The position numbers and the translations under genes were made by a program. This document shows, piece after piece, positions 3,624 through 25,166 of a DNA stretch of 64,000 nt. Each line of letters starts with the position of its first letter. The stretch's first letter is position 1. A model generated the notes under the pieces. The model saw only the letters and a list, made by a program, of their open reading frames with translations, was not told where the DNA came from and ran no database searches. Origin of the DNA: a virus; the IMG/VR virus record IMGVR_UViG_3300032893_000001, positions 1-64,000 of that record, one strand, 5' to 3'.

Positions 3624-3951
3624 GGCGCAAGAGCTCCTTGTACTTCTTCATCACCTTGGCGGACTGCACTGCACCTGCCAGACCTCCGAGAACGCCGAGA
3701 GCGGGTGGAAGGTACTCGGTTGGAACCGGGTGCCCGAACAGCCGCTGACTCGCGAGATCTGCACCGTACCCCAATAGCTTACCAGCTCCGTACCCAAGGC
3801 CAGTTCCCGCAGCGATCGTTCCTGCTCCAAGTAGCCCTGCGAGCATCGTGTCCTTCGTAAGAGGAACGCCGGCAGACGGCATCTCCTCCGCGAGCTTCAC
3901 GGGTTCGGGAGCGACCTCGGGCAGGTACTCGAACAGGAACGGAAGGCTCAT
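3571..3951 (-). CDS. Small glycine-zipper protein
   Basis: GLLGAGTIAAGTGLGYGAG and LGVLGGLAGA segments after a VKLA motif; ATGA-coupled to the upstream gene. Confidence 0.6.
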   Translation of the reverse strand: MSLPFLFEYLPEVAPEPVKLAEEMPSAGVPLTKDTMLAGLLGAGTIAAGTGLGYGAGKLLGYGADLASQRLFGHPVPTEYLPPALGVLGGLAGAVQSAKVMKKYKELLRHAYEESQSRAARGAAGE

Positions 3952-4862
3952 TGCCCGAAGTCTCCGGGATTCGGGATGCTGTTTCTGTAGAGCGAGAAGA
4001 TGTTGGGGATCTCCTCTTTCAAGAAGTTCTCGAGGTTCATCGGCATCGTGTAGTTGCGCGGCGGCTCGAAGTAGATGTCCTGAAGTGCCTCGTCGAGCTT
4101 GAGAGGAATCTCGAACTCGATGTCACGCGGAGGCACTTCGTGAAGCTGCACTTCCTGATGCACCGTCGCACGCAGGTGTTCGGTCGAAGAAACAGAAACG
4201 ACGTGCCAGCGGCGGTTCTCGGACTCGATGATCAAGTCACGCGGCTTGAGCGGCGGGTAGTACCCCAAGCGGGCAGTCGTATTCGACTGCTGCTGCGGCC
4301 CGACGTTCGACGTCTGCTCGCTCTTCGCGGAGGGGTCGACCTGCATCCACACCTCGATCGGAGAGAGGTACCCGCGAACGAACCCCGTGTCGTAGCAGCG
4401 CACGCAGCGCGATCGGGTGCGCTTCTTCAACGTCGGACTCCAGCAGTCGCATCGCTGTCCGAACGTGCGTGCAGGAAGAACCCAGCAGCGGCGACCTGCG
4501 TACTCGTGGAAGAGAAGCTGGATGTGCCGTCGGAGCTCGAGAGCAATCAAGTCGGGAGTGGGCTCGAGCGTGACAGGACCGAACGTCTTCGTATCGCCAC
4601 TCGGAACGTGCGTGACGAGAAGCTGGTAGTGCAGCATCCGCCATCGGTCGCCGACGTAGATGGCGTTGTCGATGAAGAAGAATCGATCGCTGAAGGGCTC
4701 GGTCAGCTTGTCGAACGGCCCGCTCGGTGACTCGGAACGAAGAAGCTGGAAGGTGTAGTCGAGGACATCTTCCGACGTGTCTCCGATCGACCACGACACC
4801 TGATTCAGCGCGTTGTCGAGCGACCGAACCAGGAAGTCGTTGATGGTGATCGAGACGGGCAT
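3948..4862 (-). CDS. Neck/head-closure-like protein with Zn-binding insertion
   Basis: GQRCDCW...RCVRCYDTGFVRGY Cys motif followed by PxLKPRDLII...RRWHV, which resembles head-closure beta-barrels; neck-region position. Confidence 0.5.
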   Translation of the reverse strand: MPVSITINDFLVRSLDNALNQVSWSIGDTSEDVLDYTFQLLRSESPSGPFDKLTEPFSDRFFFIDNAIYVGDRWRMLHYQLLVTHVPSGDTKTFGPVTLEPTPDLIALELRRHIQLLFHEYAGRRCWVLPARTFGQRCDCWSPTLKKRTRSRCVRCYDTGFVRGYLSPIEVWMQVDPSAKSEQTSNVGPQQQSNTTARLGYYPPLKPRDLIIESENRRWHVVSVSSTEHLRATVHQEVQLHEVPPRDIEFEIPLKLDEALQDIYFEPPRNYTMPMNLENFLKEEIPNIFSLYRNSIPNPGDFGQ

Positions 4863-4864
4863 CG

Positions 4865-5353
4865 CTACCTTCCAGTAGCCATCTGCGAACGCATCGCAGT
4901 GACCTGCGGAATCGAAGAAGCACGAGGCGCGCTGAGCTGTCCGGACACGGGGCTGCCGAGCTGGCCCGAGTTCATCATGAAGTTGCGGAACGCTTCGTCC
5001 AATCCACCAAAGCGGCGTTGATCGCCGAGGATGCCCTGCGCGAGGGCATGCGGCGCGAAGCCCTCCTGCGTGACCAGCGGGTGCTGTTCGATCATCTGCT
5101 GGTACTGCGCCGGGAGCGACTTGAAGATGCCCTTCTGCTCCTGCACTGACTGCATGGTGAGCTGCGGCGGACGGACGCTCGAGGGCACACTCGAAGGCGC
5201 GTTCGTTCCTGCTGACGCCAGGGTGGGTGACTGCCCCGTGCGCGACGCGTTCCCGCTGACGACGTGCTGTTCGGACTGCGGCACGCGCGAGAGCTGAACG
5301 ACCGAATCGGCTTTGGTGGGCGGACCCGCGGGAGCGAGCTCGCCCGTCAGGCT
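4865..5353 (-). CDS. -1 frame extension of the 5347-6660 protein (track ORF 4865-5284)
   Basis: The frame is open from upstream of a C_CCA_AAA slippery site. The first start codon (GTG 5284) has no SD. Confidence 0.6.
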   Translation of the reverse strand, partial: SLTGELAPAGPPTKADSVVQLSRVPQSEQHVVSGNASRTGQSPTLASAGTNAPSSVPSSVRPPQLTMQSVQEQKGIFKSLPAQYQQMIEQHPLVTQEGFAPHALAQGILGDQRRFGGLDEAFRNFMMNSGQLGSPVSGQLSAPRASSIPQVTAMRSQMATGR

Positions 5354-5371
5354 TTTGGGCTTGCGACTCCT
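5317..5371 (-). other. Programmed -1 ribosomal frameshift signal (SD + C_CCA_AAA + hairpin)
   Basis: AGGAG (5371-5367), in-phase heptamer CCCAAAA (5359-5353), 7-nt spacer, then hairpin GGGCG-A-GCUCGC-UCCC-GCGGGU-C-CGCCC. Confidence 0.65.
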
Positions 5372-6660
5372 GCCGACGCTAGCGTTCCTTCCGGCTGTCG
5401 GAAGGCCGCCGAGATCGGCCCCTGACGAACCGTTCCAGGAGGTGCACCTGACCCGAGAAGCCCCGCGGGCGCGCCGCCTCGAGCCTTCACTCGATCAGCC
5501 AGGTCTGCCGATGCGCGCAGCCCGCGCACCTCGGTTTCCGCCGCGCGCGCCGCGCGCATCGCCTGCCGCCCACTGAGAGCAGCACCTGCACCGAGCGCTT
5601 TACGGAGCGGGGCGCCACGCGCCATCTGCTCGGCGACGTTGCCGCCTACATGCCCCGCCACGCCACCGAGCGCCGCGCCGCCGAGCGCGCCCGCGAGCAT
5701 CCCGCCGGGGTGCCAGCCGCGATCGTCGTGCCCACCCATGAGCGCGCCGCCGGCGGCTCCGAGACCCGCGCCGACCAGCGCCTTGGTCCCCTGGGGTCCG
5801 AGCTTCGAGAAGACGTTGCTCGCCGCCTGGCCGATGCCTGGAGGCAGCGAGAAGGCCAGCTTCTCCGCATCCGCGTGCGCGAGCTTCTTGGCCAGGTCCT
5901 CCGCCACCTTGCGGCTCGGGAAGGGGTCTGCGACCGCCTCGAGGCGCGGCCGCGCGCGCCCGATTGCCGTCGCCTCCGCGTTCAAGTCGCGCGCGCGAGG
6001 AAGCGAGCCGGGCTTGAACTTGACCGCCGTCTGCTTGGTCGCCTGCGCCGCGCCACGCAGTTTGCCCATCAGAGCAGGGTCCATCGCCGTCTTGCGCATG
6101 CGCTCTTTGGCGTCCTCGAGGGAAGCCGAGCTCAGCTTCAATCCCGGAGACCCGACCGGGCGGTTGTGCACCGCCTCGGTGTTGTCGAGCTCCTCCGCGC
6201 CGACAGCGCCGGCGCCTTGGGAGCCGGTCAGCTCGGGGGCCGGCGGCGTGTTCGGCTGCGCAGCCGCTGCCGCGGCGGTGTGCGCCGCCTCCTCCTCGAT
6301 CTGCGCGAGCTGGAGCTCGAGCAGCCGCTTCTGGAGACGCACCTGATCTTCCTGCGTGTACAAGCTGTCCATCGACGGCTGCTGAAGTCGGTGCTGGATG
6401 CGCTGCGCGTCGAGCTGGAGCTCTTGCTGCTCGAGCGCGACGGCCTGTTCGAAGAGAGGCGTTCCCTTGAAACGATCGAGCCAGCAAGCGACCTTGCCGT
6501 CGACAGGAGCGCACTCGTTGAACGCGAGCTTCTCGCCGTTGGCGAGAGCCTCGAGCTCGTGGCGCGGGAGCTTCTTCAAGTCCTCGATGAAGGCGCGCTT
6601 CTCTTGCTCGGCCTTCGACATGCGGTGAGCCGCGAGAAGAAAATGGTCGAGCACGGTCAA
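5347..6660 (-). CDS. Putative inner-head protein with coiled coil, K-x-A motifs and glycine zipper
   Basis: 437 aa; EKRA, EKLA (x2), RKTA, RKVA, KKLA; GAGLGAAGGALMGG and GALGGAALGG; GGGAGG RBS. Confidence 0.75.
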   Translation of the reverse strand: MTVLDHFLLAAHRMSKAEQEKRAFIEDLKKLPRHELEALANGEKLAFNECAPVDGKVACWLDRFKGTPLFEQAVALEQQELQLDAQRIQHRLQQPSMDSLYTQEDQVRLQKRLLELQLAQIEEEAAHTAAAAAAQPNTPPAPELTGSQGAGAVGAEELDNTEAVHNRPVGSPGLKLSSASLEDAKERMRKTAMDPALMGKLRGAAQATKQTAVKFKPGSLPRARDLNAEATAIGRARPRLEAVADPFPSRKVAEDLAKKLAHADAEKLAFSLPPGIGQAASNVFSKLGPQGTKALVGAGLGAAGGALMGGHDDRGWHPGGMLAGALGGAALGGVAGHVGGNVAEQMARGAPLRKALGAGAALSGRQAMRAARAAETEVRGLRASADLADRVKARGGAPAGLLGSGAPPGTVRQGPISAAFRQPEGTLASAGVASPKA

Positions 6661-9191
6661 CCTCCCATCAGAGTCTTGATGTCACCGGGCGCGCGCTGAA
6701 GTCGGCCCACCAGCGCGGGACCGAGACTCGCACCCATGCTTGCACCGCCGAGAGCTGCCATCGCCGTAGAAGCACCAGGGAACTTCTCCCCAGCCTCCGC
6801 CAGACCAAGCCGCGCTTTGCGCTGCGCCTGCATCATCGCTTCACCGAACGATCCCGCAGGCGTCTTCTCGTCCGCCGCGACCTCCTGACGAAGCTTCTCC
6901 GAGCCGCCGTGGATGTTGGCCGCCTGAAGACCTCCCATCAGTGCCGCGCCACCAAGCGCGTACGGAGCCTTAGACGTGAGCATCTGCTTCGCTCCGTGAA
7001 GCGCGCCCTTGGCGAGGTCCTTCACGCTCGCGCTCTTGAACTGGTCACCCGTCTGCGGGCGGTTCTGATCTTGCTGCCCGACCGTGCGTCCCGGTTGACC
7101 ACTCGCGCCCGAGTCTGGGCTTTCGGTCGGACCCGGAGTCGTCGTTCCACCTTCGGGGGGCGCTGCCGACGGAGTGTTGCCCGCGCTCGGTGCCTGCGCC
7201 GCCGGACCCTGCTGCTGAAGGCTGGTCGCCGGCTCACCACCAGACCCCATACCGCCGGTGTTCGAACCGCTGTCATCACCAGCGATCTCCCGCAGCGTCT
7301 GCTTCAACTTCTGAAGCGCCGCCGTCGTGTCGTTCGCGAGCTGACGGCTCTGAAGCGCCGAGTTGTTCGCCTGCACCGTCTGCATCAACGCGCGCGTCGT
7401 CGCATCGTTCGACATCTGCGTCTGCTGCTGCACCGCGTTCTGGAGCTCCGCAAGCTGCTGCGCCTGCTGCTCCTTCTCCTGCTGCGCCGCCTGGAGCGCC
7501 TGCTCCATCTGCTTCTGCTGCTCGGCGAGCGCGCGCGAGCGCTCCATGTAGAAGGCCGCTTCGTTGGCGCCCTGCTGCTGCTGAAGCATCTGCTCTTGCC
7601 CGAGCAGATTCATCGTGTCCTCGAACGCCTGCTTGATGCCGCCGAGCTTCTTCTTGGTGCGGCGCGTGTCGACCTCACGTCCGACGGTCTTGCCCGCCTT
7701 GCCGCCCAAGTGCTGCCCGAGTGCAGCCGCTGCGATCGACGGCAAAGAACCACCCGGCTTGCCCGCGTAGAAGCCACCGGTCGCGCCGAGAATGCGGCCG
7801 ATCACGTCGCCGTAGAGCTCACCGCGCATTCCCTCCGTCTGCCGCGCGCGCGCCGCGAGCCCCGCATCCGCGCGCTCGTGGCCCCTCGAGACGGCGTCGG
7901 CCTTGGCGAGCTTCTTCCAGAGCGGAATCGATCCCTCTTTTCCGAAGTCGAGGCCGCCCAGCCCCATGTCGTCCCCGCCTCCACCACCGCCTCCGCCACC
8001 ACGACGAGGAGCGGGCGAGCTGAGGTCCGCCTTGGTCGTCTCCTTGCCCGTGTAGCTGCCGATGGCCGGAAGCTGGACCTGGAGCTGCTGAACGGGTTGC
8101 TCGACACGGCCTGTGTCTCCCGCCGTTCCGGGAATCGCCGACATCGGGCGCCAGTCATAGCCGCCGCCGATGCCCGCTTTCTTCTCGGTAGCAGCACGAA
8201 CGCGCTTCAGCCCCAGCACCTCTTCAGCAGTTCGCTTTGCTGCATCCGCCTTCTGCGCAACGGGTCCCGTAGGGCCACGATGCTTGGCCACGACACGTCC
8301 CATCGCGTTCTGGAAGTCGCGCACACGACTTTCTTTGGCTCCGCGATTGATGGCACGAGCAACTCGATCCTTCACCCACGTGTGCGAAACCGCCATCTTG
8401 GCGCTCGCGTTCTTGAGGAAGTCCTCCATCATCGCGGTCGCGTCGCCGTGCTGATCGAAGTTGCCCGAGCCGCGCTTGCGCATCACGCGCACGTGCTCGG
8501 CGAACTTCGCCATGGCTTCCTTCTTCTCGATCGCCGGCGGCATCGTGCCGCTTGCGTCCGGATTGTTGGTCGCTGGAGTGCGCTGCTGCGGCTGCGGGGC
8601 CGCAGGAGGTTGCGCCGCCGCCATCGGTTGCATCGACATCGACGGAGTGTTCGGAAGCATCTGCCAGAGCTCGTCGAGGTGCTCTTGCTCTTTGGTGAGG
8701 TACTCCTCGACCTTGTACTTCGCCGGGTTCTCTCCGAGCATCGAGTGCAGCACGCGCCACTTGGCGATGCCTTCCTGCTCCATGCGGATCATCGTGTTGA
8801 TGATCGCCGACGGATCGGTCGCCGGCGGCGGCGCCGGGATGTCGTTGAGCTGCGAAGGACCACCGAGAACAGCGAGACGACGAAGCAGCCAGTCGGCGTG
8901 CTCGATCTCGTCCTCGGAGTGATCTTCGAACTCTTCTGCGATCGCGAAGTGCGACAAGTCGCGGAGCGACTGCGCGTACGTCTTGTACGCGTACATGGTC
9001 TTGAACTCGTTCTCGACCATCTGCACGAGCAGAGGAAGAACCTGCTCGACAGGCGCTTCGAACTGCCCCTCGAGGCCGCCGGTCTCGTCCGGGGGATCGA
9101 GAGGAGCCTGAGCAGCCGTCTTCAGCTTCAGAAAGAAGGCACTCGCCGCTGCGAGCGGGAGGTCTCCGACGATGTTGCGTTCGAACGACAT
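6657..9191 (-). CDS. Large modular head protein with N-terminal ferritin-like di-iron domain, coiled coil and glycine zippers (844 aa)
   Basis: Start reassigned to ATG 9191 (GAGGAG RBS; the track's extension overlaps 9199-9699). E...ExxH...E...ExxH ligand pattern (ENEF, EDEIEH, MEQEG, KEQEH) and many K-x-A motifs. Confidence 0.75.
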   Translation of the reverse strand: MSFERNIVGDLPLAAASAFFLKLKTAAQAPLDPPDETGGLEGQFEAPVEQVLPLLVQMVENEFKTMYAYKTYAQSLRDLSHFAIAEEFEDHSEDEIEHADWLLRRLAVLGGPSQLNDIPAPPPATDPSAIINTMIRMEQEGIAKWRVLHSMLGENPAKYKVEEYLTKEQEHLDELWQMLPNTPSMSMQPMAAAQPPAAPQPQQRTPATNNPDASGTMPPAIEKKEAMAKFAEHVRVMRKRGSGNFDQHGDATAMMEDFLKNASAKMAVSHTWVKDRVARAINRGAKESRVRDFQNAMGRVVAKHRGPTGPVAQKADAAKRTAEEVLGLKRVRAATEKKAGIGGGYDWRPMSAIPGTAGDTGRVEQPVQQLQVQLPAIGSYTGKETTKADLSSPAPRRGGGGGGGGGDDMGLGGLDFGKEGSIPLWKKLAKADAVSRGHERADAGLAARARQTEGMRGELYGDVIGRILGATGGFYAGKPGGSLPSIAAAALGQHLGGKAGKTVGREVDTRRTKKKLGGIKQAFEDTMNLLGQEQMLQQQQGANEAAFYMERSRALAEQQKQMEQALQAAQQEKEQQAQQLAELQNAVQQQTQMSNDATTRALMQTVQANNSALQSRQLANDTTAALQKLKQTLREIAGDDSGSNTGGMGSGGEPATSLQQQGPAAQAPSAGNTPSAAPPEGGTTTPGPTESPDSGASGQPGRTVGQQDQNRPQTGDQFKSASVKDLAKGALHGAKQMLTSKAPYALGGAALMGGLQAANIHGGSEKLRQEVAADEKTPAGSFGEAMMQAQRKARLGLAEAGEKFPGASTAMAALGGASMGASLGPALVGRLQRAPGDIKTLMGG

Positions 9192-9198
9192 GGACTCC

Positions 9199-9699
9199 TC
9201 ACTCGAAGGTGTAGACGACGTGCATGTTGTCGTTGACCGAGTACGCGAAGCCGAAGTACGGCGGCGTCGGCGTGCCATACGGTGTGCCGTAGACCTTGCC
9301 GATCGTGTCGTTGCCGGTGTCGAAGCCGAGAACCGCGTTGGCCGTTCCCGTCTTGTCGATGGTGATGCCGTTCGCCGGCGAGGACTCGACGATGACCAAG
9401 TGGCCTTCGAACTGGCGGACCTTGACGCCCGCGATCGCTCCCTCGATCTGCGACTTGATCTCCTTGAAGAGGAGCTTGCCGCCTGGGTTCGCACCCGCGA
9501 TGAAGGTGCACGTGCCTGCGGGGCCAGGCGCCTTCGTCTTGAAGGTCAGCCCGACGAGCGGAGGGATGTCGCGCTGACCGCCGCCACCCTGAGCGATCGT
9601 CTGCGCGAAGTACGAGACGTCGCCGCCGACAACGGCGCCGTTCAGGAACATGTTGAGCTCGTCGAGCTCGCGGAACTTGTTGACCTTCCAAATCGCCAT
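9199..9699 (-). CDS. Virion structural protein
   Basis: 166 aa, GAGGA RBS, strong GC3 bias, in the head operon. Confidence 0.6.
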   Translation of the reverse strand: MAIWKVNKFRELDELNMFLNGAVVGGDVSYFAQTIAQGGGGQRDIPPLVGLTFKTKAPGPAGTCTFIAGANPGGKLLFKEIKSQIEGAIAGVKVRQFEGHLVIVESSPANGITIDKTGTANAVLGFDTGNDTIGKVYGTPYGTPTPPYFGFAYSVNDNMHVVYTFE

Positions 9700-9706
9700 G
9701 GTGTCC

Positions 9707-10207
9707 TCAGTAGGCTGCGTAGGTGGCGTTGACGGCCCAGAGCTCCGAGTGCACGCCGCTGTTCGACGGACCCAAGATGCCCTCGATGTTGAGAGCGACC
9801 TTCACGCGTTGCTTGAGCTGATCGGTGTACGACTTGTAGTACTGGAGCCAGGATAGCAGCAACGGGGCCTTGTCGTTGACGCCCACGTTGATGCCGCCGG
9901 TCGAGTAGTTGATGTGGTTGCGGATCTGAAGAAGAGCGACCGACTCGATGAGCGAGATGACCGTCATGCGGCGCAGAAGGGCGTGCTGGTTGCGCATGAG
10001 CATCTCCTCGAGGGACATCGAGGTGAAGTGCGGCGTGCCGTTGAAGTCGGAGAGGGCATCGAGAATCGACCAAGCGATCTGCCGATCGCTCGACTCCTCT
10101 CCACGCACGATGCGGTTCAACTCAGGGAGGTCCCGCATGTACAGGCGCACGTCCTGTACGAAGTTCCTCATCGTTTGAGTGACCCCAGGAATGCCCTCGA
10201 GCGACAC
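9707..10207 (-). CDS. Head-tail adaptor/neck-like protein
   Basis: 166-aa helical protein (DVRLYMRD...N...SDRQI) downstream of the capsid gene; GGAGG RBS. Confidence 0.55.
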   Translation of the reverse strand: MSLEGIPGVTQTMRNFVQDVRLYMRDLPELNRIVRGEESSDRQIAWSILDALSDFNGTPHFTSMSLEEMLMRNQHALLRRMTVISLIESVALLQIRNHINYSTGGINVGVNDKAPLLLSWLQYYKSYTDQLKQRVKVALNIEGILGPSNSGVHSELWAVNATYAAY

Positions 10208-10210
10208 GCG

Positions 10211-10831
10211 TCACCTCCGCGATTTCTTCTCGACGTACTCGACCTCGTCTGCGTCCACGTCCGCCAAGTCCTCGAGAGAAGGACCGCCGAACATGTTCGT
10301 ACTCGCCGGCTGCTCCTCCGAAGCCTTCGCCTCGATTTTCTTCTTCGGAACGTACGGGGCGTTCGGCGGAAGAGCGGGAACGATGTGCCCCTCTTTGACC
10401 GGAGGAGGAAGCGGCGCAGGCACCGGCTCCTTCGACAAGATCTCCGGCCTCGCGAGAGGATCGACCGCGAGCTCGTTGGACAGATCGAGCTTGCGGAACG
10501 TGCGACCGATGGGAAGGTCGTTGTGCGCCGAGTCCGGAAGCCGTTCGGGGTGCAGCTTCGGATCGGGCGTCTTCTGCTTCGGCGCCAGGTGCAGCAGATC
10601 GACGGGTTCTCCCGTCGGCAGCTTGACCTCGAGAACACCGTCCCTCTCGAGCTGCTTGAGCGTTTCGAGATTGCGACTCAGCTCTTCCTCGCTGATGACC
10701 GTCGGACGCCCCGGTACGAGGCGGCGCTGGGTGTCGAGAACGAACTGCGTGCGGCGCACATGCGTCGGCTGCGTCGCGCGCAGCGTGCGCGTCTTGAGCG
10801 AGCGGACCGTGCTGTGAAGGCAGTACTCCAT
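10211..10831 (-). CDS. Hypothetical protein (206 aa)
   Basis: Start reassigned to ATG 10831 (GGAGAG RBS), just after the capsid terminator. Confidence 0.65.
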   Translation of the reverse strand: MEYCLHSTVRSLKTRTLRATQPTHVRRTQFVLDTQRRLVPGRPTVISEEELSRNLETLKQLERDGVLEVKLPTGEPVDLLHLAPKQKTPDPKLHPERLPDSAHNDLPIGRTFRKLDLSNELAVDPLARPEILSKEPVPAPLPPPVKEGHIVPALPPNAPYVPKKKIEAKASEEQPASTNMFGGPSLEDLADVDADEVEYVEKKSRR

Positions 10832-10841
10832 AGACTCTCCG

Positions 10842-10885
10842 AAAAAGCACAAGGCGCCGGCACCTGCCGGTACCGACGCCTCGTG
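10842..10885 (-). terminator. Intrinsic terminator after major capsid gene
   Basis: 16-bp stem CACGAGGCGTCGGTAC/GTGCCGGCGCCTTGTG (with G-U pairs), loop CGGCAG, then CTTTTT. Confidence 0.75.
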
Positions 10886-10922: not shown

Positions 10923-12044
10923 TCAGTACTGGTTGACCTGCGGGAACTGGAGGCCCGTGTCGACGCGGTTGTTGACCGCACCGAGCGCGTCCTCGGCGAC
11001 CGGGATGAAGCTCGAGAGCAGCCCATCCGCGTTGTTCGACGTCGCGTCGGCCGAGTAGAGCTCGAGTTTGCGCACCGCCGCGATGTTGATGATCCCCATA
11101 CCGATGTCCTCCCACGCCTGGAAGGTGATCATGTTGGCGATCTTGTCGATGTAGAACTTCGAGTTGTTCAGGACGTAGAACTTCCCGAAGAACTCCGGGC
11201 GGGTGAAGCAGTACACGTTGCCCGCGCGGAGGATGTCCGTCTTGACCGTGCGGATGTACGCGCGGCCGAGCAGCGTGTTGTACTTGTACCCGTCGACCGC
11301 CGTCTCCGACTGGAGGCGATCGCCGAAGTCCTCGACCGTCCACTGAAGGAGGTCGTCCCAGTCGACTTCCGTCATCAGGACGCGCTCCGAGCGGAGGCGG
11401 TTGCCGTCGAGCAACTTGAAGAGGTTGACGAGGTCCGGGCGCTGGATCGGGCGCACGGTCGCGTCGTTCTTGCCGGCGTTGCGCGCGAGCTCGCCCTTGC
11501 GGACGGAGAACTCGACGACGGCGCCCGCGTTGATGTTCGACCAGTTCAGCGAGGTGATCGTGCCGCCGTTCGCTTCCTGCTGGAGCGCTTGGACGGCCGC
11601 CTCGATGTTGATCGTGAACTCGCGGTCCTCGATCTCCTGGATGTCCTTCACCGAGTTGTCCTCGATGATCTTGGTGATGGGCATCTCGTAGGCGAGAAGC
11701 TCCTGCTCCGTCTTCTGGAACATCTCCGAGGAGATGGTGAAGAAGGCGACCTCGGCCTTCGCACCGCGGATGAAGCGGGCGGTGGGCTGACCGCGGAACG
11801 AGATCGAGAGCGCGCGGCTCTGCGGCTCGACGTCCACGATCTTGACGAGGGTGTCGTGGTTGACGCTGCGCTGGCAGTCGGCGCGGGTGACCTGCTCGGG
11901 AGGAAGAACTTTCCTCGCGTAGGACACTTCGCGGAGACGATCACGGACGTACGAACCGCCGTACTCTGCGATCTTCTCCTTGCCTTCCTGCGTGCCCAGC
12001 TTCTGGGTGAACAGGTCGTTGAGGACTCGTGCGGGGACACTCAT
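10923..12044 (-). CDS. Major capsid protein (HK97-type)
   Basis: 373 aa with very strong codon bias and a purine-rich RBS; follows protease/scaffold/decoration genes and is followed by a terminator; N-terminal EKIA motif. Confidence 0.8.
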   Translation of the reverse strand: MSVPARVLNDLFTQKLGTQEGKEKIAEYGGSYVRDRLREVSYARKVLPPEQVTRADCQRSVNHDTLVKIVDVEPQSRALSISFRGQPTARFIRGAKAEVAFFTISSEMFQKTEQELLAYEMPITKIIEDNSVKDIQEIEDREFTINIEAAVQALQQEANGGTITSLNWSNINAGAVVEFSVRKGELARNAGKNDATVRPIQRPDLVNLFKLLDGNRLRSERVLMTEVDWDDLLQWTVEDFGDRLQSETAVDGYKYNTLLGRAYIRTVKTDILRAGNVYCFTRPEFFGKFYVLNNSKFYIDKIANMITFQAWEDIGMGIINIAAVRKLELYSADATSNNADGLLSSFIPVAEDALGAVNNRVDTGLQFPQVNQY

Positions 12045-12649: not shown

Positions 12650-13003
12650 TCAGCCGCCCGTGAGGAACGACTCCAAGTCGGAGCCGCCCACGTGAGACTG
12701 GTTGTCGTTGGTGAGCGAAGCGAGCTTCCGTCCCATGTCGGGACCGACGAGGTTCACTGCGTTCTTGATCTCCCCGAGCTTGCCGCTTTCGGCCATCTTC
12801 TCGAGGTTCGTCACGAGTTGCTCGAAGGGCTCGTTGCTGATGCCCTTGCTCTGCATCTCGTGAGCGACTTTCTCCGCCTCCGCACGGCGCTCGTACTGAG
12901 CGACCTTCGTGCGAAGCTCGTCGCGCTCGGCCGTGACCGAACGCAGCGCGGTGGCAGCGTCGTTGAGGACTTCTGCGACCTTGTCGTGGCTGATCTTCTC
13001 CAT
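12650..13003 (-). CDS. Small coiled-coil scaffold-like protein
   Basis: 117 aa; EKIS, DKVA, EKVA, EKMA, RKLA motifs. Confidence 0.65.
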   Translation of the reverse strand: MEKISHDKVAEVLNDAATALRSVTAERDELRTKVAQYERRAEAEKVAHEMQSKGISNEPFEQLVTNLEKMAESGKLGEIKNAVNLVGPDMGRKLASLTNDNQSHVGGSDLESFLTGG

Positions 13004-13013
13004 GGTCCCTTCC

Positions 13014-14279
13014 TCACGCCGTCGGGTTGGTCTGCTCGTCGAGCAGGGTCTCGAGGAGAGCGCGCGCAGCCGCGACCTTCACGCCGCCGTTCGCACTGCC
13101 GAACTTGGTGCCCGCCTGCGCGGTGCTGTCGAACGCCGCGCGGAGCGTGCTGTCGGTCTGCGACGACAGAGCCGGCTCGTCGAGCCACTTCTTCATGTCG
13201 CTCTTCGGACCAGACTTGGCCTGCCCCTTGGTGTAGTTGATGGCCGCCTGGTTCGAGCCGACGAGCTCGGTGTTCGGACCGGGCTTGCCGCCGGCGGGCG
13301 CGCCGCCCGCTTCACCCGCAGCGCTGGTCTCCGGCGGAACGGCGGGACCCGCCGAGATGTGCGCCGGGTTGATCGCGTCCTCGGCCTTCTTGCTGATGCC
13401 GAGGCGCGCGAGGTTGCCTTCGAGGAGAGCAGACGCCTTCTTCTCGGGCTTGCACTCGCACGCGGTCTTGTCCTTGCCGCACTTCTCGCACTTCTCCGCG
13501 GCGACCTTCTTCAGGCCGAGGCGCGCGAGGTTGCTCTCGAGCAGATCTGCCGAGGCCACCTTCTGCGGGGTGTGCCCCGGCGTCGAGTGGTGCTCGTTCG
13601 TCTCGAGCGCGTTGGCAGCCTGATCCGACGGGCGCACCTTCTCGGTGCCCGGCTTGTGCGGCGGCTGCTGATGCGCCTGACCCTTGTGGTCCGGAAGCGA
13701 CGTCGATGCGGTCGCGTGCGACACCTCGAGCGCACCGGGTCCCTTGCCGGGAGCCTGGATGTGCTCGGTGATGTGCGCCGGCGGCGCGGCGCTGGCCGCG
13801 CTCTTGTGGAACTCGCTCGCGAGGAACTCGAGAGCGCCGGCGAGCTTGTCGACGTACTCCGTCGGCACCGACATCTCTTGCTCCAGTGCGCTCGCGGTCT
13901 TCTCCCCCGAGAGGTTCTCCGCCTGACGACGGGCCTCTTCGCTGATGCGCGCACGGGAGATGGAGCCAGCCTGCGCTGCCTTGACCAGGTCCTGAAGCGA
14001 CGGTTTCGATGCCATCCCTGTTCCGTTCATGATTGACCCGTACTTTGGTGGTAGCGACTTCTGAGAGACTGCGCCAGCATCAGGTGCTGGCATCGAGCCC
14101 GAGTTCACTCGGGTGAAGTTGTTCCGATGGGCCATTCCAGTTGGCCCCCGCTTCCCCGGCGCAAGTCGCGAGACGATCTGCGGCTGCGGAAGCGGAGAAG
14201 ATCCCGCTGCGGACAGGAGTGAGCCTCCCGAGGATTCCCCCTCGGCTTGCTTGCGCATGGCTGCACTCCCATCCCACAA
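13014..14279 (-). CDS. Low-complexity scaffold/inner-head protein
   Basis: Ala/Gly/Pro-rich; about ten K-x-A motifs; duplicated LLExNLARLG segment; AAGGAG RBS. Start uncertain. Confidence 0.65.
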   Translation of the reverse strand: MWDGSAAMRKQAEGESSGGSLLSAAGSSPLPQPQIVSRLAPGKRGPTGMAHRNNFTRVNSGSMPAPDAGAVSQKSLPPKYGSIMNGTGMASKPSLQDLVKAAQAGSISRARISEEARRQAENLSGEKTASALEQEMSVPTEYVDKLAGALEFLASEFHKSAASAAPPAHITEHIQAPGKGPGALEVSHATASTSLPDHKGQAHQQPPHKPGTEKVRPSDQAANALETNEHHSTPGHTPQKVASADLLESNLARLGLKKVAAEKCEKCGKDKTACECKPEKKASALLEGNLARLGISKKAEDAINPAHISAGPAVPPETSAAGEAGGAPAGGKPGPNTELVGSNQAAINYTKGQAKSGPKSDMKKWLDEPALSSQTDSTLRAAFDSTAQAGTKFGSANGGVKVAAARALLETLLDEQTNPTA

Positions 14280-14292
14280 CGGTCTCTCCTTG

Positions 14293-15096
14293 TCAGCCCT
14301 TGGGCTGCTCCCAGGTCACGGGGTAACCCGCCGCCTCGAGGAGCTCGAGAGCGCGGATCTCCTTGGCCTGCGGGAACTCGGTGGCGGCGGCCACCTTGCT
14401 GTTGTCCTCGTTGAAGCCGAGGGTGAGGACCGCCGACACGCGCGCGGTCGCCTCGTCGCGATCGAAACCGGCCGAGGCCGCTTTCTCGATGGCGAAGGCG
14501 GCAGAGACTTGGGTGAGCGCCGAAGGCGACGCCTTCTTGCTCACGGAGGCTTTCTTCTCCTCCTTCTTCTCTTCCTTCTTCTCCTCGTCCTTCTTCTCTT
14601 CCTTCTCGCCGCCGCCGTCCTTCTTGCCGAGCGCGGCCGCGAGCTGCGGCGGCATCGCCGCCTCTTTCGAGCCCAGGAAGTCGAAGCCGCCTTCGGAGGC
14701 GATCTTGCGGAGCTCCGCCACGTAGGCGTGCGCCATCTGACGACCGAAGAAGTCGGCCTCGGCGAACTTCGCCTGCGCTTCCTTGGTCTGGAGCCACTCG
14801 TTCATCGCCTGCGCCTCGGCCTTCTTCTCGCCGTGGTGCTTGTGGCCGTGCTGCGCAGCCTTCTTGTCCTTGTGCGCGTGGCCGTGCTCTTTCTTCTCTT
14901 CCTCGCCCGCCGTCTTGGCGAACGTGGCGTTCCAGAGCTCGGTGATCTGGCTGTCGTTCAGCGTGCTCAGGTCGATGCCGTTCTCGGCGGCCATCTTCGC
15001 GAAGAGCTCGGCTTGAGCGACCTTCTCGGCGTCAGCGGTCTGCTGAGGCTGGGTCGTGCCGTACGCGTGCGCGAGGTATTCGTGCATCCCACTCAT
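14293..15096 (-). CDS. Scaffold-like inner-head protein
   Basis: 267 aa; about a dozen K-x-A motifs, K/E tract, His-rich patch; ATGA-coupled to the protease gene. Confidence 0.7.
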   Translation of the reverse strand: MSGMHEYLAHAYGTTQPQQTADAEKVAQAELFAKMAAENGIDLSTLNDSQITELWNATFAKTAGEEEKKEHGHAHKDKKAAQHGHKHHGEKKAEAQAMNEWLQTKEAQAKFAEADFFGRQMAHAYVAELRKIASEGGFDFLGSKEAAMPPQLAAALGKKDGGGEKEEKKDEEKKEEKKEEKKASVSKKASPSALTQVSAAFAIEKAASAGFDRDEATARVSAVLTLGFNEDNSKVAAATEFPQAKEIRALELLEAAGYPVTWEQPKG

Positions 15097-16832
15097 GAGT
15101 GGACTCCTTCATCGAGGGTTGGTGAGTTCCACGTGTTCCTCGAGGGGAGTCCCCTCTCCACGCCGGCGTTCGCCTGTTTGGAGTGGCCGACCTCGTCCAA
15201 GAACGCGTTCTTGAGATAGGCAGCCGACAAGGATGTGAATAGCTCGTTCACGTGGGCCTGTGCAAGTTTCTTGAGACTACCGTCGGAAAGACCGGAGCGA
15301 TCGATCATGTCCTGCACTTCAGGAACGAGATGAAGAATCGCTTGGCGATAGCCGTTGTACGCACTCCCAATCTTACGCAGCAGATCTGACGAATGGGAAG
15401 AATCTGTTTTTCGGGCTACCGGCGACCCCTTCCCAATGATGACCAAAACCCGCTTCTCGATGGCAGGTCCGAAGGCAGATCGATCGGAAAGAAGCGGGAG
15501 AAGCAGCTTCGCGAGCGCGGAGTGAAAGAGGTCGGAACGAAGGGAAACGGGGTCCGTTTCTTCGCTCTTTGGAAAGACGACTCCACGTTGCTCGAGATCG
15601 TCCGCGACGTCTTTTTGACCTCCGCGAACGAGGATGATCCGCTGGAACTCCTTCGGTCGAAGAACCATACCGAGCCCAGTGGTCGTAGAGAGCGCTTCAC
15701 CAAGCGGACGCGACGCAAGCGCATCGAGCACCTCCTCGGGTAGATCCGGCTCGTGACGAGTGAGCAGCGGAACAGCCTTGCCAGCGAACTGCGAGGGGAC
15801 CGTGTCTTTCACGATCTCGCTCTTCTTCAGCTTCGCGGCTTTCCCGAGGAAGGCCATCTTGAACGCGTCTTCTTCAGAAGCGCTCGCAGTCTTTTCTTCT
15901 TGTTCGTCTTCTTCGACGTACCCGAGCTTCTCTGCGATTTCCGCTGAGGGCAACGACCACAATTTGCTCTCGCCGTCGGCGATCTTCATCATCACCTTCG
16001 CCGTCTTGTCGGCACCGATGAAGACGAAGCTGATGTCGAAGAACTTCGGGTAGTCGTTGTAGACGAAGACCTTTCGTCCGTCGGACAAGATCTTGTTCAT
16101 CGAGCCGCGCGCGTGCTCGCAGTAGTCGGCGCGCGTGATCGACAAGCCGCGGATGCCCTTGCCGTTCTTCGCCTTGAGCTGCTTGTGAACCTCGAGGATT
16201 GCCTCTCCGGGCGTACGATGACGATCCTTCTTGAACGTCGCCATCGCCTTTCGGTACGCCTCCCAGTCGAGGCAGATCGAACACGTATCGAAGGGAACCT
16301 TGCAGCCCATCGAAACGTCCGGGAAGTGTCCGGCCTTGAGTTTGTCCCAGACGCCCGTACCGCCGAACTGGTCGCACTTGTCCTTGTCGACGCGGGTGAC
16401 CAATTCGACGCGCTTCATCCGGTTGTTCCAGAGAGCGAGCTCGACTTCTCCGAAGGCGCGCGTCGCGTCCTTGTTCCGATGGTGCGCGTACGGGTGCGCC
16501 AAGTAGAACGTCGGGTAGCCGTAGCCCCACGTCTTGGCCTTCTCGCGATCAAGCAGCGGATTGCCGCTCCAGTCATCCGGAGCGTGGATGAGCGCAGCCT
16601 CGGGGAAGTAGTCGCCGTTGACGTTCGAGCCCCAGAACTCGCCAGCACCCATCGCGTTCAGCAGAACGTACTGCGCGTCGCTGCGTGGACGAAGCGTGTG
16701 GATGTAACGAACGACTTCCGGCAACAAGTCAGGAGACGCGACCTTCTCGAGGTACTCATCGGCACGCGTGAACAGCGGGATCGCCGCTGGCCCGTACGCC
16801 GCATGACTCGAGAAGAAGCTCGTCTTGATCAT
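15093..16832 (-). CDS. Capsid maturation (prohead) protease, HK97/herpes assemblin-like fold
   Basis: NxNGDxF, HHRN (candidate catalytic His), DVSMG (candidate catalytic Ser), CSIC Zn insert and FFDISFVFIGAD; lies upstream of scaffold and capsid genes. Confidence 0.8.
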   Translation of the reverse strand: MIKTSFFSSHAAYGPAAIPLFTRADEYLEKVASPDLLPEVVRYIHTLRPRSDAQYVLLNAMGAGEFWGSNVNGDYFPEAALIHAPDDWSGNPLLDREKAKTWGYGYPTFYLAHPYAHHRNKDATRAFGEVELALWNNRMKRVELVTRVDKDKCDQFGGTGVWDKLKAGHFPDVSMGCKVPFDTCSICLDWEAYRKAMATFKKDRHRTPGEAILEVHKQLKAKNGKGIRGLSITRADYCEHARGSMNKILSDGRKVFVYNDYPKFFDISFVFIGADKTAKVMMKIADGESKLWSLPSAEIAEKLGYVEEDEQEEKTASASEEDAFKMAFLGKAAKLKKSEIVKDTVPSQFAGKAVPLLTRHEPDLPEEVLDALASRPLGEALSTTTGLGMVLRPKEFQRIILVRGGQKDVADDLEQRGVVFPKSEETDPVSLRSDLFHSALAKLLLPLLSDRSAFGPAIEKRVLVIIGKGSPVARKTDSSHSSDLLRKIGSAYNGYRQAILHLVPEVQDMIDRSGLSDGSLKKLAQAHVNELFTSLSAAYLKNAFLDEVGHSKQANAGVERGLPSRNTWNSPTLDEGVHS

Positions 16833-17425: not shown

Positions 17426-18733
17426 TCAGTAGCCCATGGGGAAGGGGTAGCCGCTGTACTGGTACGCGAGCTCTTGGCTCTTTTGCTGATACTCCGGCGT
17501 GCCGGGAATGAACGACTTCAGTGTCTGGCCGACAGGAGAAGCGCCGAGCGCAGAGAGGTGCTGCGCGCCGCGGACCGCAGCGAGTCCACCGATAGCGTGC
17601 GGAATATGCGTGACCGCTCCGCCAGCGATTCTGCCCATGGTCTCGGCCGCGGAGCTTCCGGGGCCGAAAAGCAGGTCGCCCACGGCCCTACCGCCTTTTC
17701 CCACGAGCTTTCCGCCCTCCTCGAAGGTGTCAACCACACTTCGAAGCAGGCCAGGACGCGGCATTTTCGGTGCGGCCTCCTTCACGCCAGCGATCTCCGC
17801 CAGCTTGTCGTAGAAGGCCGAAACGCGCTCCGGCGTCGCCTTGCGCAAGAAGCTCACGGTCTCGTCCAACGCGAGCTTGGTCTGCTCTCGGGTCTCGCGG
17901 ACCGCCGCGAGCTTGTCGAGCGTCTCGCAGAACTCGGTCATCGTCACGACGAGCGGATGCTGCTCGTTGACCATCCGGTGCTCGCTGGCGGTCTTGCTGA
18001 TCGAGTCGTCGACGTCGATGAGGGTGCGGAAGACCTCCTCCTGCACGAGGCGCGGTCCGATCATCTCGAATGCCGTCTTGACATAGAGGGGGTCAGCGAC
18101 GAACGGCGCCCACGCCTGAACCACCTCCCCGAGCGTCGTGCCCGACATGGCCGCCTGCTTGACGTGCCCGTAGAGCTGCTCCGCGAGGTCCATGTACATG
18201 CCCTCGAGACCGCTGAGGACCGACGTCTCGTGCTCGTAGAGCGACGCAAGCTTGTCCTTCAGCTCGATCACTTCCCCGAACGGGTTGTGCTGCACCATCG
18301 CCGCTTCGGGGCGAGAGAGTGCCGAAGCGAATGCCTCTTCGGCTGCGGCCGACGCGACCTTCGTCTCCGCCGGAGGTGACGCGTAGTCGAGCATCCCACG
18401 GTCGTAAGTCGACCCACCTCCGCCATCGTTCAGGTCCTGAAGGACCGCGGCCGGATCTGCCGGGCCGCCCTGGAACTCGATGACGCGATGGGGCGAGCCT
18501 TCTTTCTTGAACTCGGTCAAGTACGCGGTCGTGTTGGCGAACTCGACGACGCGACGAACTTGCTCCGGAGAAAGCCCCGCGTGCTTGACGGTCTCGACCA
18601 CTGCTTGCGTCAGGTCACCGTCGCCGCGCGTGTAGAGATCGGCTGCTTTCTTGCCGAAAGCTTCGAGCTCTTCTCCCGAAATCGGACGAGCGTGCGATTG
18701 TTGAAGGAGGCTCTGAAACGGAAGGTCGTGCAT
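17426..18733 (-). CDS. Inner-head protein with K-x-A motifs and C-terminal Gly-rich tail
   Basis: 435 aa; KKA, KHA, KVA, KLA (x3), KQA, KTA (x2), KEA. Confidence 0.7.
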   Translation of the reverse strand: MHDLPFQSLLQQSHARPISGEELEAFGKKAADLYTRGDGDLTQAVVETVKHAGLSPEQVRRVVEFANTTAYLTEFKKEGSPHRVIEFQGGPADPAAVLQDLNDGGGGSTYDRGMLDYASPPAETKVASAAAEEAFASALSRPEAAMVQHNPFGEVIELKDKLASLYEHETSVLSGLEGMYMDLAEQLYGHVKQAAMSGTTLGEVVQAWAPFVADPLYVKTAFEMIGPRLVQEEVFRTLIDVDDSISKTASEHRMVNEQHPLVVTMTEFCETLDKLAAVRETREQTKLALDETVSFLRKATPERVSAFYDKLAEIAGVKEAAPKMPRPGLLRSVVDTFEEGGKLVGKGGRAVGDLLFGPGSSAAETMGRIAGGAVTHIPHAIGGLAAVRGAQHLSALGASPVGQTLKSFIPGTPEYQQKSQELAYQYSGYPFPMGY

Positions 18734-25155: not shown

Positions 25156-25166
25156 GAGGCTCTCCG

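What the first reader, a model, noticed from the sequence alone, without database searches (positions are those of the whole stretch)
8657..9050. Ferritin-like di-iron domain embedded in a K-x-A-punctuated head protein
Seen: a four-helix ferritin/bacterioferritin pattern with intact ligands (ENEF...EDEIEH...MEQEG...KEQEH), bracketed by LKTA upstream and KKEA downstream, four genes from the capsid gene. Inference: maturation would release a ferroxidase-like module inside the head or into the host, for iron handling or oxidative protection of DNA. This parallels encapsulins, HK97-fold shells carrying ferritin-like cargo, but here in a tailed phage.
Basis: partly seen in the sequence, partly recalled or inferred. 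Interest (0 to 1): 0.75.

Follow-up and report, generated by a model that had tools for sequence, protein, structure and literature searches.

The report
Ferritin-like module in phage head polyprotein
An uncultured 185-kb phage encodes, among its head-assembly genes, a long protein whose front end is a genuine ferritin-type iron-binding domain; short Lys-x-Ala motifs, probably cut by the head protease, flank this domain, so it looks like an optional cargo loaded into the capsid, but no experiment has shown this.

Summary
Window 6657-9191 (minus strand) encodes an 844-aa protein. Residues 48-178 (nt 8658-9050) form a ferritin/bacterioferritin-like four-helix bundle (Pfam PF00210, E 9e-15; AlphaFold pLDDT 90). 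All six di-iron ligands are intact and are kept in 74 of 78 homologues.

The K-x-A bracket is real as a position-specific motif:
- 68 of 78 homologues have K-x-A at residues ~24-28.
- 74 of 78 have one in the otherwise hypervariable linker after the domain; 37 are expected by chance.
- Genome-wide, K-x-A is 2.9-fold enriched only in head-block proteins.

A neighbouring gene (15093-16832) is a probable T4 gp21-type prohead protease.

In relatives with 75-89% identical capsid proteins, only 12 of 41 slot genes carry the ferritin domain. The ferritin-less ones keep the same N-terminal leader. The domain is therefore an optional module placed behind a shared leader, analogous to the capsid-targeting sequence of T4 internal proteins.

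Packaging, cleavage and iron chemistry are all inferred. The cultured relative Arash lacks the gene. I rate this a new variant of a known kind. Other agents of this scan had already noted the K-x-A theme elsewhere in this genome.

The parts
6657..9191 (-). Gene for the 844-aa 'slot' polyprotein (P0001): leader, ferritin-like module, variable basic middle, C-terminal module
   Evidence: ORF and translation; GC3 0.75; about 80 homologues of 465-1148 aa; 223 clusters at E<=1e-30; conserved synteny
9114..9191 (-). N-terminal leader, residues 1-26 (consensus ..GIPLxxAAAFFxxLK..K-T-A), candidate capsid-targeting propeptide ending in K24-T-A26
   Evidence: Conserved in homologues; K-x-A present in the leader of 68 of 78; the same leader heads ferritin-less proteins in the same slot
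8658..9050 (-). Ferritin/bacterioferritin-like four-helix di-iron domain, residues 48-178
   Evidence: PF00210 E 9e-15; AF2 pLDDT 90; Foldseek best matches are DPSL/thioferritin, PA4880, mini-bacterioferritin and Bfr; ligand set EEHEEH in 74 of 78
8514..8522 (-). K224-E-A226, the first K-x-A after the ferritin domain (candidate cleavage site at the end of a Pro/Gln-rich linker)
   Evidence: 74 of 78 homologues have K-x-A at +10..+75 after H171, against 37.4 expected; logo P-rich...K-[TQ]-A-[AS]
7905..8513 (-). Hypervariable basic middle segment, residues 227-429 (pI 10.2), ending in K427-L-A429
   Evidence: Covered by only 5-12 of 80 homologues in BLASTP; pI; K-x-A lies just before the C-module in 21 of 30 homologues
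6660..7904 (-). Semi-conserved C-terminal module, residues 430-844: glycine-zipper-like stretches, Gln-rich coiled coil, basic
   Evidence: 30-55% identity in about 30 of 80 homologues; no Pfam, PHROG or Atlas assignment; no transmembrane-grade hydrophobic segment
15093..16832 (-). Candidate prohead protease (N-terminal ~285 aa; invariant H118 and S174 in VSMG) with a conserved E-E-K-T-A-[SA] right after the domain; homologue of Arash gp222
   Evidence: Alignment A3; best structural match T4 gp21 5jbl_A, Z 6.4, then herpesvirus proteases, from a low-confidence model; tblastn to Arash; inteins at the VSMG|C site in relatives
10923..12044 (-). Major capsid protein, with E-K-I-A at residues 23-26
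   Evidence: phrog_2522; homologous to the Arash major capsid protein; K-x-A at residues 24-26 in 44 of 46 distinct relatives
12650..15096 (-). Three scaffold-like head proteins (117, 421 and 267 aa) strongly enriched in K-x-A
   Evidence: 6 observed against 0.9 expected, 11 against 5.3, 14 against 5.9

Best explanation
The gene encodes a modular head-associated polyprotein with four parts. (1) A ~26-residue N-terminal leader is shared by every protein that occupies this genomic slot in related phages. It acts like a capsid-targeting sequence and ends in K-T-A. (2) An acidic (pI 4.5) ~22-kDa ferritin-like module follows. It has a complete bacterioferritin/DPSL-type intrasubunit di-iron centre. 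(3) Next comes a hypervariable basic segment. (4) Last is a basic C-terminal module with glycine-zipper and coiled-coil features. The most likely mechanism is as follows. The leader brings the protein into the assembling prohead core. The phage's gp21-like prohead protease then cuts at [E/D]-K-x-A-[A/S] sites at the module borders and frees the ferritin-like module inside the capsid. There, or in the host after ejection with the DNA, the module binds and oxidises Fe(II), probably consuming O2 or H2O2 as Dps-like proteins do, and so limits Fenton damage to the phage DNA. Shown here: the fold, ligand conservation, motif statistics, synteny, and the optional presence of the domain behind a shared leader. 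Inferred: packaging, cleavage, oligomeric state, iron chemistry and ejection.
For: Fold and active site: PF00210 E 9e-15. The AF2 four-helix bundle has pLDDT 90. Foldseek probability is 1.0 to DPSL 2vzb/2clb, PA4880 8w1e, mini-bacterioferritin 9qq4 and Bfr. E62, E95, H98, E138, E168 and H171, plus Tyr69 at +7 from E62, are at least 95% conserved, and the full set is intact in 74 of 78.

Head context: the gene is the fourth downstream of the capsid gene in an operon whose order is kept in 23 relatives. Its flanking genes are homologous to Arash gp233 and gp234, detected in Arash particles (PMC10585845).

Motif: K-x-A is in the leader of 68 of 78 homologues and after the domain in 74 of 78, against 37.4 expected (binomial p 3e-19, treating the related sequences as independent); it also precedes the C-module in 21 of 30. 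In seven head-block proteins there are 77 K-x-A against 26.3 expected, while the other 177 genes have 191 against 185. Control patterns A.K, KA, K..A and R.A run at 0.5-1.1 times expectation. Ten of 20 head-block proteins have K-x-A within 35 residues of the N-terminus, against 24 of 164 elsewhere (Fisher p 6e-4). The capsid protein has E-K-I-A at residues 23-26.

Protease: 15093-16832 has invariant His and Ser. T4 gp21 is its top structural match (Z 6.4, next 4.2). An EEKTA motif follows the domain directly.

Modularity: only 12 of 41 close relatives carry the ferritin domain, and the ferritin-less slot proteins keep the leader. At least 6 gains or losses are needed on the capsid-protein tree.

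Precedents: the T4 capsid-targeting sequence and gp21 (PMC9026906); SPN3US gp245, which cuts at A-X-E (PMC10052503); a ferritin-like protein in phage G particles (PMC12484599).
Against: There is no proteomic, biochemical or structural datum for any member of this family. The only cultured relatives (Arash, Vibrio phages D69/D148/D181) lack the gene. The Arash 'structural' list has 116 proteins including ribonucleotide reductases, from a sucrose-gradient preparation, so it is not very specific. The K-x-A count in this protein alone is not significant. P0001's own post-domain site (K-K-E-A-M) fits the refined logo poorly. The protease model has pLDDT 55, so the gp21 match is only suggestive. Three divergent members have lost ligands, so metal chemistry is not indispensable. 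A folded 12- or 24-mer cage could not pass through a tail, so ejection and cage formation cannot both hold. The seven enriched proteins were chosen after seeing the counts, and homologues are not statistically independent.
Confidence: 0.5

Rival explanations
1. The protein is a late-expressed auxiliary protein that is not packaged. The ferritin-like domain sequesters iron or detoxifies peroxide in the infected cell cytoplasm, like the Dps-like genes of Lactobacillus phages and 'Gratiaviridae'. On this reading K-x-A is a helix-capping or other sequence habit of these proteins, not a cleavage site.
For: Stand-alone Dps/ferritin-like genes in phages are usually read as oxidative-stress helpers (PMC6669764, PMC8008677). 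The module is accessory, present in 12 of 41 relatives. No virion data exist for it.
Against: It is embedded in and translationally coupled within the head operon, with conserved order. It shares an N-terminal leader with all proteins of the slot. K-x-A enrichment is specific to head-block proteins and to that exact pattern. A fusion to a 600-aa low-complexity basic tail is unexplained for a cytoplasmic enzyme.
Confidence: 0.2
2. The ferritin-like bundle is mainly structural. It would be a stable oligomerising knob that helps build or space the prohead core or inner body, with the metal site vestigial or merely stabilising, and with no iron-handling function.
For: Ligands are lost in P0074, P0077 and P0078 while the protein persists. 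Ferritin-fold proteins are strong self-assemblers. Neighbouring head proteins are scaffold-like.
Against: All six ligands plus the ferroxidase-centre Tyr are kept in 74 of 78 members across 36-70% identity, which argues for selection on the metal site. Most close relatives assemble heads without the domain, so it is not a needed structural part.
Confidence: 0.15
3. The protein is a tail component, either a tape-measure or an ejection-channel protein, and the ferritin domain is a tail-lumen or tip accessory (a 'Ferrojan horse'-type iron display).
For: It is long and has coiled-coil and glycine-zipper segments. Vi01-like phages have a ferritin-like protein discussed as a tail protein (PMC10892097).
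Against: Length varies from 465 to 1340 aa among phages with near-identical capsids, which does not fit a tail ruler. The frameshift gene lies downstream, not upstream. The gene sits between head and neck gene homologues. The leader and K-x-A pattern is shared with capsid, scaffold-like and protease proteins.
Confidence: 0.05

Closest known systems
T4 internal proteins (IPI, IPII, IPIII, Alt) with the capsid-targeting sequence, processed by prohead protease gp21 (PMC9026906)
   Same: A short N-terminal leader is shared by otherwise unrelated, rapidly exchanged proteins encoded among head genes. The leader ends at the protease motif. The protease is of the gp21/assemblin type. The cargo is non-essential and variable between close relatives.
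   Different: The motif here is [E/D]-K-x-A-[A/S], not L/I-x-E. The leader is ~26 aa, not 10. The protein is a multi-module polyprotein with internal sites. The cargo is a ferritin-like di-iron domain. None of the steps is experimentally shown.
Head and ejection proteins of giant phages SPN3US/phiKZ cut by gp245/gp175 at A-X-E or S/A/G-X-E (PMC10052503, PMC7411985)
   Same: These are large phages that package an RNA polymerase and many internal proteins. Many head proteins carry N-terminal propeptides, and propeptides hold several copies of the motif.
   Different: The cleavage motif differs, there is no sequence homology of the substrates, and no ferritin-like substrate is described there.
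DPS-like proteins / thioferritins (S. solfataricus 2clb, B. fragilis 2vzb, P. aeruginosa PA4880 8w1e) and mini-bacterioferritin (9qq4; PMC13168243)
   Same: They share the four-helix bundle with an intrasubunit bacterioferritin-type di-iron site and no fifth helix. They are the best sequence and fold matches.
   Different: Identity is only 20-25%. The Cys pair of thioferritins is absent (the protein has no Cys). Scores are below the NCBIfam DPS cut-offs. The domain is fused to a leader and a 600-aa tail. The dodecamer state is unknown.
Encapsulin nanocompartments with ferritin-like cargo (EncFtn, Flp, M. xanthus EncB/C/D)
   Same: An HK97-fold shell is paired with a ferritin-superfamily protein that carries a short address peptide. 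Two bacterial genome bins (MAGs) that carry the gene are labelled Myxococcales and Deltaproteobacteria, and the encapsulin iron store is a Myxococcus system.
   Different: The address is N-terminal and probably cleaved, not a C-terminal cargo-loading peptide. The fold is a full four-helix monomer, not the two-helix EncFtn. The shell packages a 185-kb genome and has terminase, scaffold-like proteins and a protease.
Stand-alone Dps/ferritin-like genes of phages (Lactobacillus phages, 'Gratiaviridae', phage G gp346, Vi01-like gp217)
   Same: These are phage-encoded ferritin-superfamily proteins. The phage G and Vi01-like proteins were detected in particle proteomes (PMC12484599, PMC10892097).
   Different: They are separate small proteins, mostly in replication or accessory regions, without the leader, the K-x-A borders or the long tail. 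There is no tblastn similarity in 50,697 phage records.

Membership tests
Ferritin-like superfamily, Pfam PF00210 (Ferritin) | Score above the curated gathering threshold | tested here: met
   55.2 bits against a cut-off of 24.5, E 9e-15, profile positions 4-139 of 142; also found in six-frame search of the genome, 57.8 bits
Ferritin-like superfamily, Pfam PF00210 (Ferritin) | Up-down-down-up four-helix bundle with a long B-C loop | tested here: met
   AF2 model pLDDT 90, helices 48-73, 81-110, 127-152, 157-178, loop 111-126; 177 PDB matches at E<=1e-3, all ferritin, Bfr or Dps
Ferritin-like superfamily, Pfam PF00210 (Ferritin) | Di-iron ligands E, ExxH, E, ExxH plus the ferroxidase-centre Tyr | tested here: met
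   E62, E95-x-x-H98, E138, E168-x-x-H171, Y69; kept in 74 of 78 homologues
Bacterioferritin (Bfr) | Heme-ligating Met next to the helix-B Glu (E. coli Met52) | tested here: not met
   Position 96 is Ile; in the family it is L 30, T 22, I 9, M 5
Bacterioferritin / classical ferritin (24-mer) | Short fifth (E) helix and 24-subunit cage | tested here: not met
   The model has no helix after 178, and a Pro/Gln-rich linker follows. The oligomeric state itself is not testable here.
DPSL / thioferritin | Conserved Cys pair beside the di-iron site | tested here: not met
   No cysteine anywhere in P0001
DPSL / mini-bacterioferritin | Dodecameric shell | not testable with these tools
   It would need SEC-MALS or cryo-EM of the module.
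Dps (DNA protection during starvation) | NCBIfam DPS models above cut-off; basic DNA-binding N-terminal tail | tested here: not met
   NF009990 24.8 bits against 158; NF040955 20 bits against 250. The segment before the bundle is acidic and the module has pI 4.5.
Encapsulin ferritin-like cargo (EncFtn/Flp) | C-terminal cargo-loading peptide; adjacent encapsulin shell gene without terminase or portal | tested here: not met
   The domain is N-terminal behind a leader. The locus has a large terminase and a 185-kb genome.
CTS-directed internal head proteins (T4-like logic) | Shared N-terminal leader on divergent proteins encoded among head genes, ending at the protease motif | tested here: met
   The leader is conserved in ferritin-bearing and ferritin-less slot proteins; K-x-A at the end of the leader in 68 of 78
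CTS-directed internal head proteins (T4-like logic) | Presence in virions and removal of the leader by the prohead protease | not testable with these tools
   No cultured member; the Arash supplement holds no peptide-level data and Arash lacks the gene
gp21/assemblin-type prohead serine protease (for 15093-16832) | Assemblin-like fold with a His/Ser catalytic pair | tested here: inconclusive
   Invariant H118 and S174, 56 residues apart. The best of 48,161 chains is T4 gp21, Z 6.4, rmsd 4.3 over 140 residues, then VZV, HCMV and KSHV proteases at Z 2.6-3.9, but the model pLDDT is 55. No Pfam, PHROG or NCBIfam hit.

The most novel reading that the evidence does not exclude
A large clade of uncultured phages, possibly infecting Myxococcota, uses a cleavable N-terminal address to load an active ferritin-like ferroxidase into the capsid. 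This would be a tailed-virus counterpart of encapsulin iron cargo. The address slot would work as a general plug-in site for exchangeable capsid cargo, processed by a protease with a previously undescribed [E/D]-K-x-A specificity.
Probability: 0.3. Interest if true: 0.8.

Novelty: new variant of a known kind. Interest (0 to 1): 0.6.

Why it matters
If the inference holds, this is the first case of a metal-handling enzyme domain addressed into a tailed-phage head by a propeptide. It would be shared by at least 223 sequence clusters in metagenomes. It bears on a question raised in a 2026 paper on HK97-fold evolution (PMC13669383): whether procapsids can co-assemble cargo-like enzymes as encapsulins do. 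It also gives a concrete, testable cleavage motif ([E/D]-K-x-A-[A/S]) and a candidate targeting leader for a whole phage clade that also appears to package its own RNA polymerase and sigma factor. Practically, a natural leader plus protease-site cassette is the kind of tool the T4 capsid-targeting sequence became for loading foreign proteins into capsids. If the inference fails, the gene is still a well-defined new architecture of the ferritin superfamily.

Tried and rejected
- **Homodimer prediction.** The job on residues 27-190 gave no verdict (score 0.41, mark 0.42). It says nothing either way about oligomerisation.
- **Family searches on P0001.** PHROGs gave no family. PADLOC gave only a weak coiled-coil hit to PbeC. 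The protein-atlas search on the C-module scored at most 0.77, with TM below 0.5, so there is no lead.
- **Searches in known phages.** tblastn of the whole protein, and of residues 1-200 at E up to 10, found nothing in 50,697 phage records. Searches of the Arash genome with the protein and with a C-module profile found nothing.
- **Paralogues.** None in the genome.
- **Stand-alone relatives.** Only two proteins of 88-282 aa matched, and both look like fragments of the same family. No cellular donor was identified.
- **Ferritin-less slot proteins.** Pfam found no other domain in ten of them, so I cannot show that alternative enzymatic cargoes use the slot.
- **K-x-A count in P0001 alone.** Not significant. 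I rejected count-based 'punctuation' and relied on position and comparison.
- **Candidate protease.** The AF2 model is of low confidence. PDB sequence search gave only designed helical repeats for its C-terminal part.
- **Arash supplement.** Supplement 2 is an annotation table with no peptides, so it gives no test of cleavage.
- **Tape-measure reading.** Rejected because of the length variability and the gene position.
Full report
**1. What is there**

The window is the first 64 kb of a single 184,953-bp virus record with 62% G+C. Its minus strand between about 2.6 and 33.6 kb is a late/virion block. It holds a 2128-aa fused beta/beta' RNA polymerase, a large terminase (19512-21308) and a major capsid protein (10923-12044, phrog_2522).

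The finding lies in the ORF 6657-9191 (minus strand), 844 aa, stored as P0001. Its ATG at 9191 follows an AGGAG Shine-Dalgarno sequence that overlaps the stop of the upstream gene. Its own stop overlaps the start of the next gene, so it is translationally coupled within an operon. It is the fourth gene downstream of the capsid gene.

**2. The ferritin-like domain is real**

- Pfam PF00210 matches residues 55-182 at E 9e-15, 55 bits against a cut-off of 24.5.
- Sequence search of the PDB gives DPS-like proteins and bacterioferritins.
- An AlphaFold model built on 78 homologues has mean pLDDT 90. It shows four long helices (48-73, 81-110, 127-152, 157-178) and a long B-C loop.
- Foldseek finds 177 PDB matches at E<=1e-3, all ferritin-superfamily cages. 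The best are the B. fragilis and S. solfataricus DPS-like thioferritins, P. aeruginosa PA4880 and the 12-meric mini-bacterioferritin (PMC13168243).
- The six ligands (E62; E95, H98; E138; E168, H171) have bacterioferritin spacing. Tyr69 sits at +7 from the first Glu, as in ferroxidase centres. All are at least 95% conserved, and the complete set is kept in 74 of 78 family members.

The domain is not a bacterioferritin proper. Ile, not Met, occupies the heme-ligand position, and there is no fifth helix. It is not a thioferritin, because the protein has no cysteine. It is not a Dps, because the NCBIfam scores are far below cut-off and the N-terminal segment is acidic. It is a separate branch of the superfamily.

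**3. Architecture and family**

About 80 close homologues and 223 clusters at E<=1e-30 among 1.84 billion representatives all carry the domain at the very N-terminus of proteins of 400-1340 aa. BLASTP coverage shows four parts:
- a conserved part, residues 1-190;
- a hypervariable part, residues ~200-425;
- a semi-conserved C-terminal module, residues ~427-843.

The ferritin module is acidic (pI 4.5). The middle and C-terminal parts are basic (pI 10.2 and 9.3). They hold glycine-zipper-like and Gln-rich coiled-coil stretches but no transmembrane-grade segment. No family library names the C-module.

**4. The K-x-A motif**

Counted in this protein alone, K-x-A is not above chance: 10 observed against 7.1 expected. 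Position tells another story.
- 68 of 78 homologues have K-x-A, mostly K-T-A, at the end of the N-terminal leader.
- 74 of 78 have one 10-75 residues after the last ligand, in an otherwise unalignable Pro-rich linker. Shuffles of that same window predict 37.4.
- 21 of 30 have one just before the conserved start of the C-module.

Across the genome, seven proteins of the late block hold 77 K-x-A against 26.3 expected. These are the three scaffold-like proteins, the candidate protease, and the products of 17426-18733, 22912-25170 and 42465-43724. The other 177 genes hold 191 against 185. In the same seven proteins, the control patterns A.K, KA, AK, K..A, R.A and K.S run at 0.5-1.1 times expectation. 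The context is [E/D]-K-[T/V/L]-A-[S/A].

Half of the head-block proteins (10 of 20) have the motif within 35 residues of the N-terminus, against 24 of 164 elsewhere (Fisher p 6e-4). The capsid protein has E-K-I-A at residues 23-26 in 44 of 46 distinct relatives, and a K-E-A at the same place in Salmonella phage Arash.

This is the pattern expected of a prohead-protease recognition site. Compare L/I-x-E for T4 gp21 (from my own knowledge of the T4 literature; the review PMC9026906 was read only for the capsid-targeting sequence) and A-X-E for SPN3US gp245 (PMC10052503).

Caveats: I chose the seven proteins after seeing their counts, homologues are not independent, and no cleavage has been observed.

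**5. A candidate protease**

The 579-aa product of 15093-16832 is homologous to Arash gp222, which was detected in particles. It has a highly conserved N-terminal domain of ~285 aa with invariant His118 and Ser174 (in V-S-M-G). A conserved E-E-K-T-A-[S/A] follows directly.

Its AlphaFold model is poor (pLDDT 55). Even so, a search of 48,161 PDB representatives puts T4 gp21 first (Z 6.4, 140 residues aligned; next unrelated hit Z 4.2), with three herpesvirus proteases further down.

In relatives the gene carries in-frame inteins directly after V-S-M-G and at two further sites. Inteins typically sit in active sites of essential enzymes. I regard the assignment as probable, not proven.

**6. The domain is an optional module behind a shared leader**

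The capsid protein has 258 relatives in IMG/VR. Among the 80 closest (75-89% identity), 41 loci extend far enough downstream to judge, and only 12 contain the ferritin domain.

The others have, in the same slot, proteins of 440-730 aa with no recognisable domain. The slot lies after the homologue of 9199-9699 and before the homologue of 5347-6660. These proteins begin with the same leader (..G-I-P-L-x-x-A-A-A-F-F-x-x-L-K.., then K-x-A).

On a capsid-protein tree the presence of the domain needs at least six changes, three of them forced by well-supported branches. The ferritin domain is therefore an accessory module, inserted or lost repeatedly just behind a conserved address.

This is the logic of the T4 internal-protein locus. 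There a conserved capsid-targeting sequence heads divergent, non-essential proteins that are packed into the prohead core, trimmed by gp21 and ejected (PMC9026906).

**7. Mechanism proposed, and its limits**

I propose the following sequence:
- the leader targets the protein to the prohead;
- the gp21-like protease cleaves at the K-x-A borders;
- a ~22-kDa acidic ferritin-like protein is released inside the head;
- it oxidises or sequesters Fe(II), protecting DNA in the particle or on entry.

The first three steps rest on comparative inference. The last rests on the conserved ferroxidase-type site.

Against it, or unresolved:
- there is no proteome for any member;
- the cultured relatives (Arash, Vibrio phages D69/D148/D181) lack the gene;
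- the Arash particle proteome is broad, with 116 proteins;
- three divergent members have lost ligands;
- the oligomeric state is unknown.

Rival readings are a cytoplasmic auxiliary enzyme, a purely structural knob, and a tail protein. They are weighed in their own section.

**8. Comparison and novelty**

Phage-encoded Dps/ferritin-like proteins are known (PMC6669764, PMC8008677). Two have been seen in particle proteomes (PMC12484599, PMC10892097). BFVD lists uncultured-phage proteins annotated as prohead protease or Dps whose predicted structures align weakly (Foldseek E about 1e-3 to 3e-2, several with large rmsd) with this model; that the aligned part is a ferritin-like domain is my inference from the model being a ferritin bundle, and I did not examine those entries.

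I found no paper that describes any of the following:
- a ferritin-like domain as a leader-addressed, motif-bracketed module of a head polyprotein;
- its on/off distribution among near-identical phages;
- the K-x-A motif.

The encapsulin parallel is a functional analogy only. Two bacterial genome bins (MAGs) that carry the gene are labelled Myxococcales and Deltaproteobacteria, which is a weak host hint.

Other agents of this scan had already noted the K-x-A theme and the Arash relationship elsewhere in this genome. I used these as leads and tested the motif independently here.

**Verdict**

I rate it a new variant of a known kind, with interest 0.6.

Noticed in passing
L008:6-2747, L012:77-3997, L018:1208-3958 (relatives of window 15093-16832): The candidate prohead protease gene of several relatives carries in-frame Hint/intein-like inserts of about 1 kb. 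One lies directly after the V-S-M-G motif, one after K-V-P-x-D-T, and one after D-Y. L012 has two. The window's own copy is uninterrupted.
   Followed up: partly
window 42465-43724 (-): A 419-aa protein outside the main head block has 11 K-x-A against 3.1 expected, like the head-block proteins. It may be another protease substrate or packaged protein.
   Followed up: no
window 10211-10850 (-): A probable ~210-aa Pro/Lys/Glu-rich gene fills the 715-nt gap between the capsid gene and 9707-10207. My GC3 filter missed it, but relatives have a gene there (L003 2622-3152).
   Followed up: no
L002:591-1241, L003:4043-4561: In some relatives an HNH endonuclease gene sits between the two small genes just upstream of the ferritin-fusion gene. 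The window has none there.
   Followed up: no
window 5347-6660 (-): The next gene (437 aa) also has an N-terminal K-x-A and ends in glycine-zipper repeats (weak Pfam Gly-zipper hits). It travels with the slot gene in all relatives.
   Followed up: partly
P0074, P0077, P0078 (homologues): Three divergent family members have replaced three to five of the six di-iron ligands (for example L-H-S-E-C-H and A-Y-V-E-A-R) while keeping the leader and overall architecture. In these lineages the metal site has decayed.
   Followed up: partly
L102, L103: The only two hits among 185,579 species genomes are contigs in MAG bins labelled Deltaproteobacteria and Myxococcales. This is a weak host clue, and Myxococcus is the organism with the ferritin-type encapsulin iron store.
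   Followed up: no
window 9707-10207 and 3948-4862 (-): Their Arash homologues gp233 and gp234 are adjacent. In this phage three genes lie between them (9199-9699, the ferritin fusion, 5347-6660), so the slot region looks like an insertion relative to Arash.
   Followed up: partly
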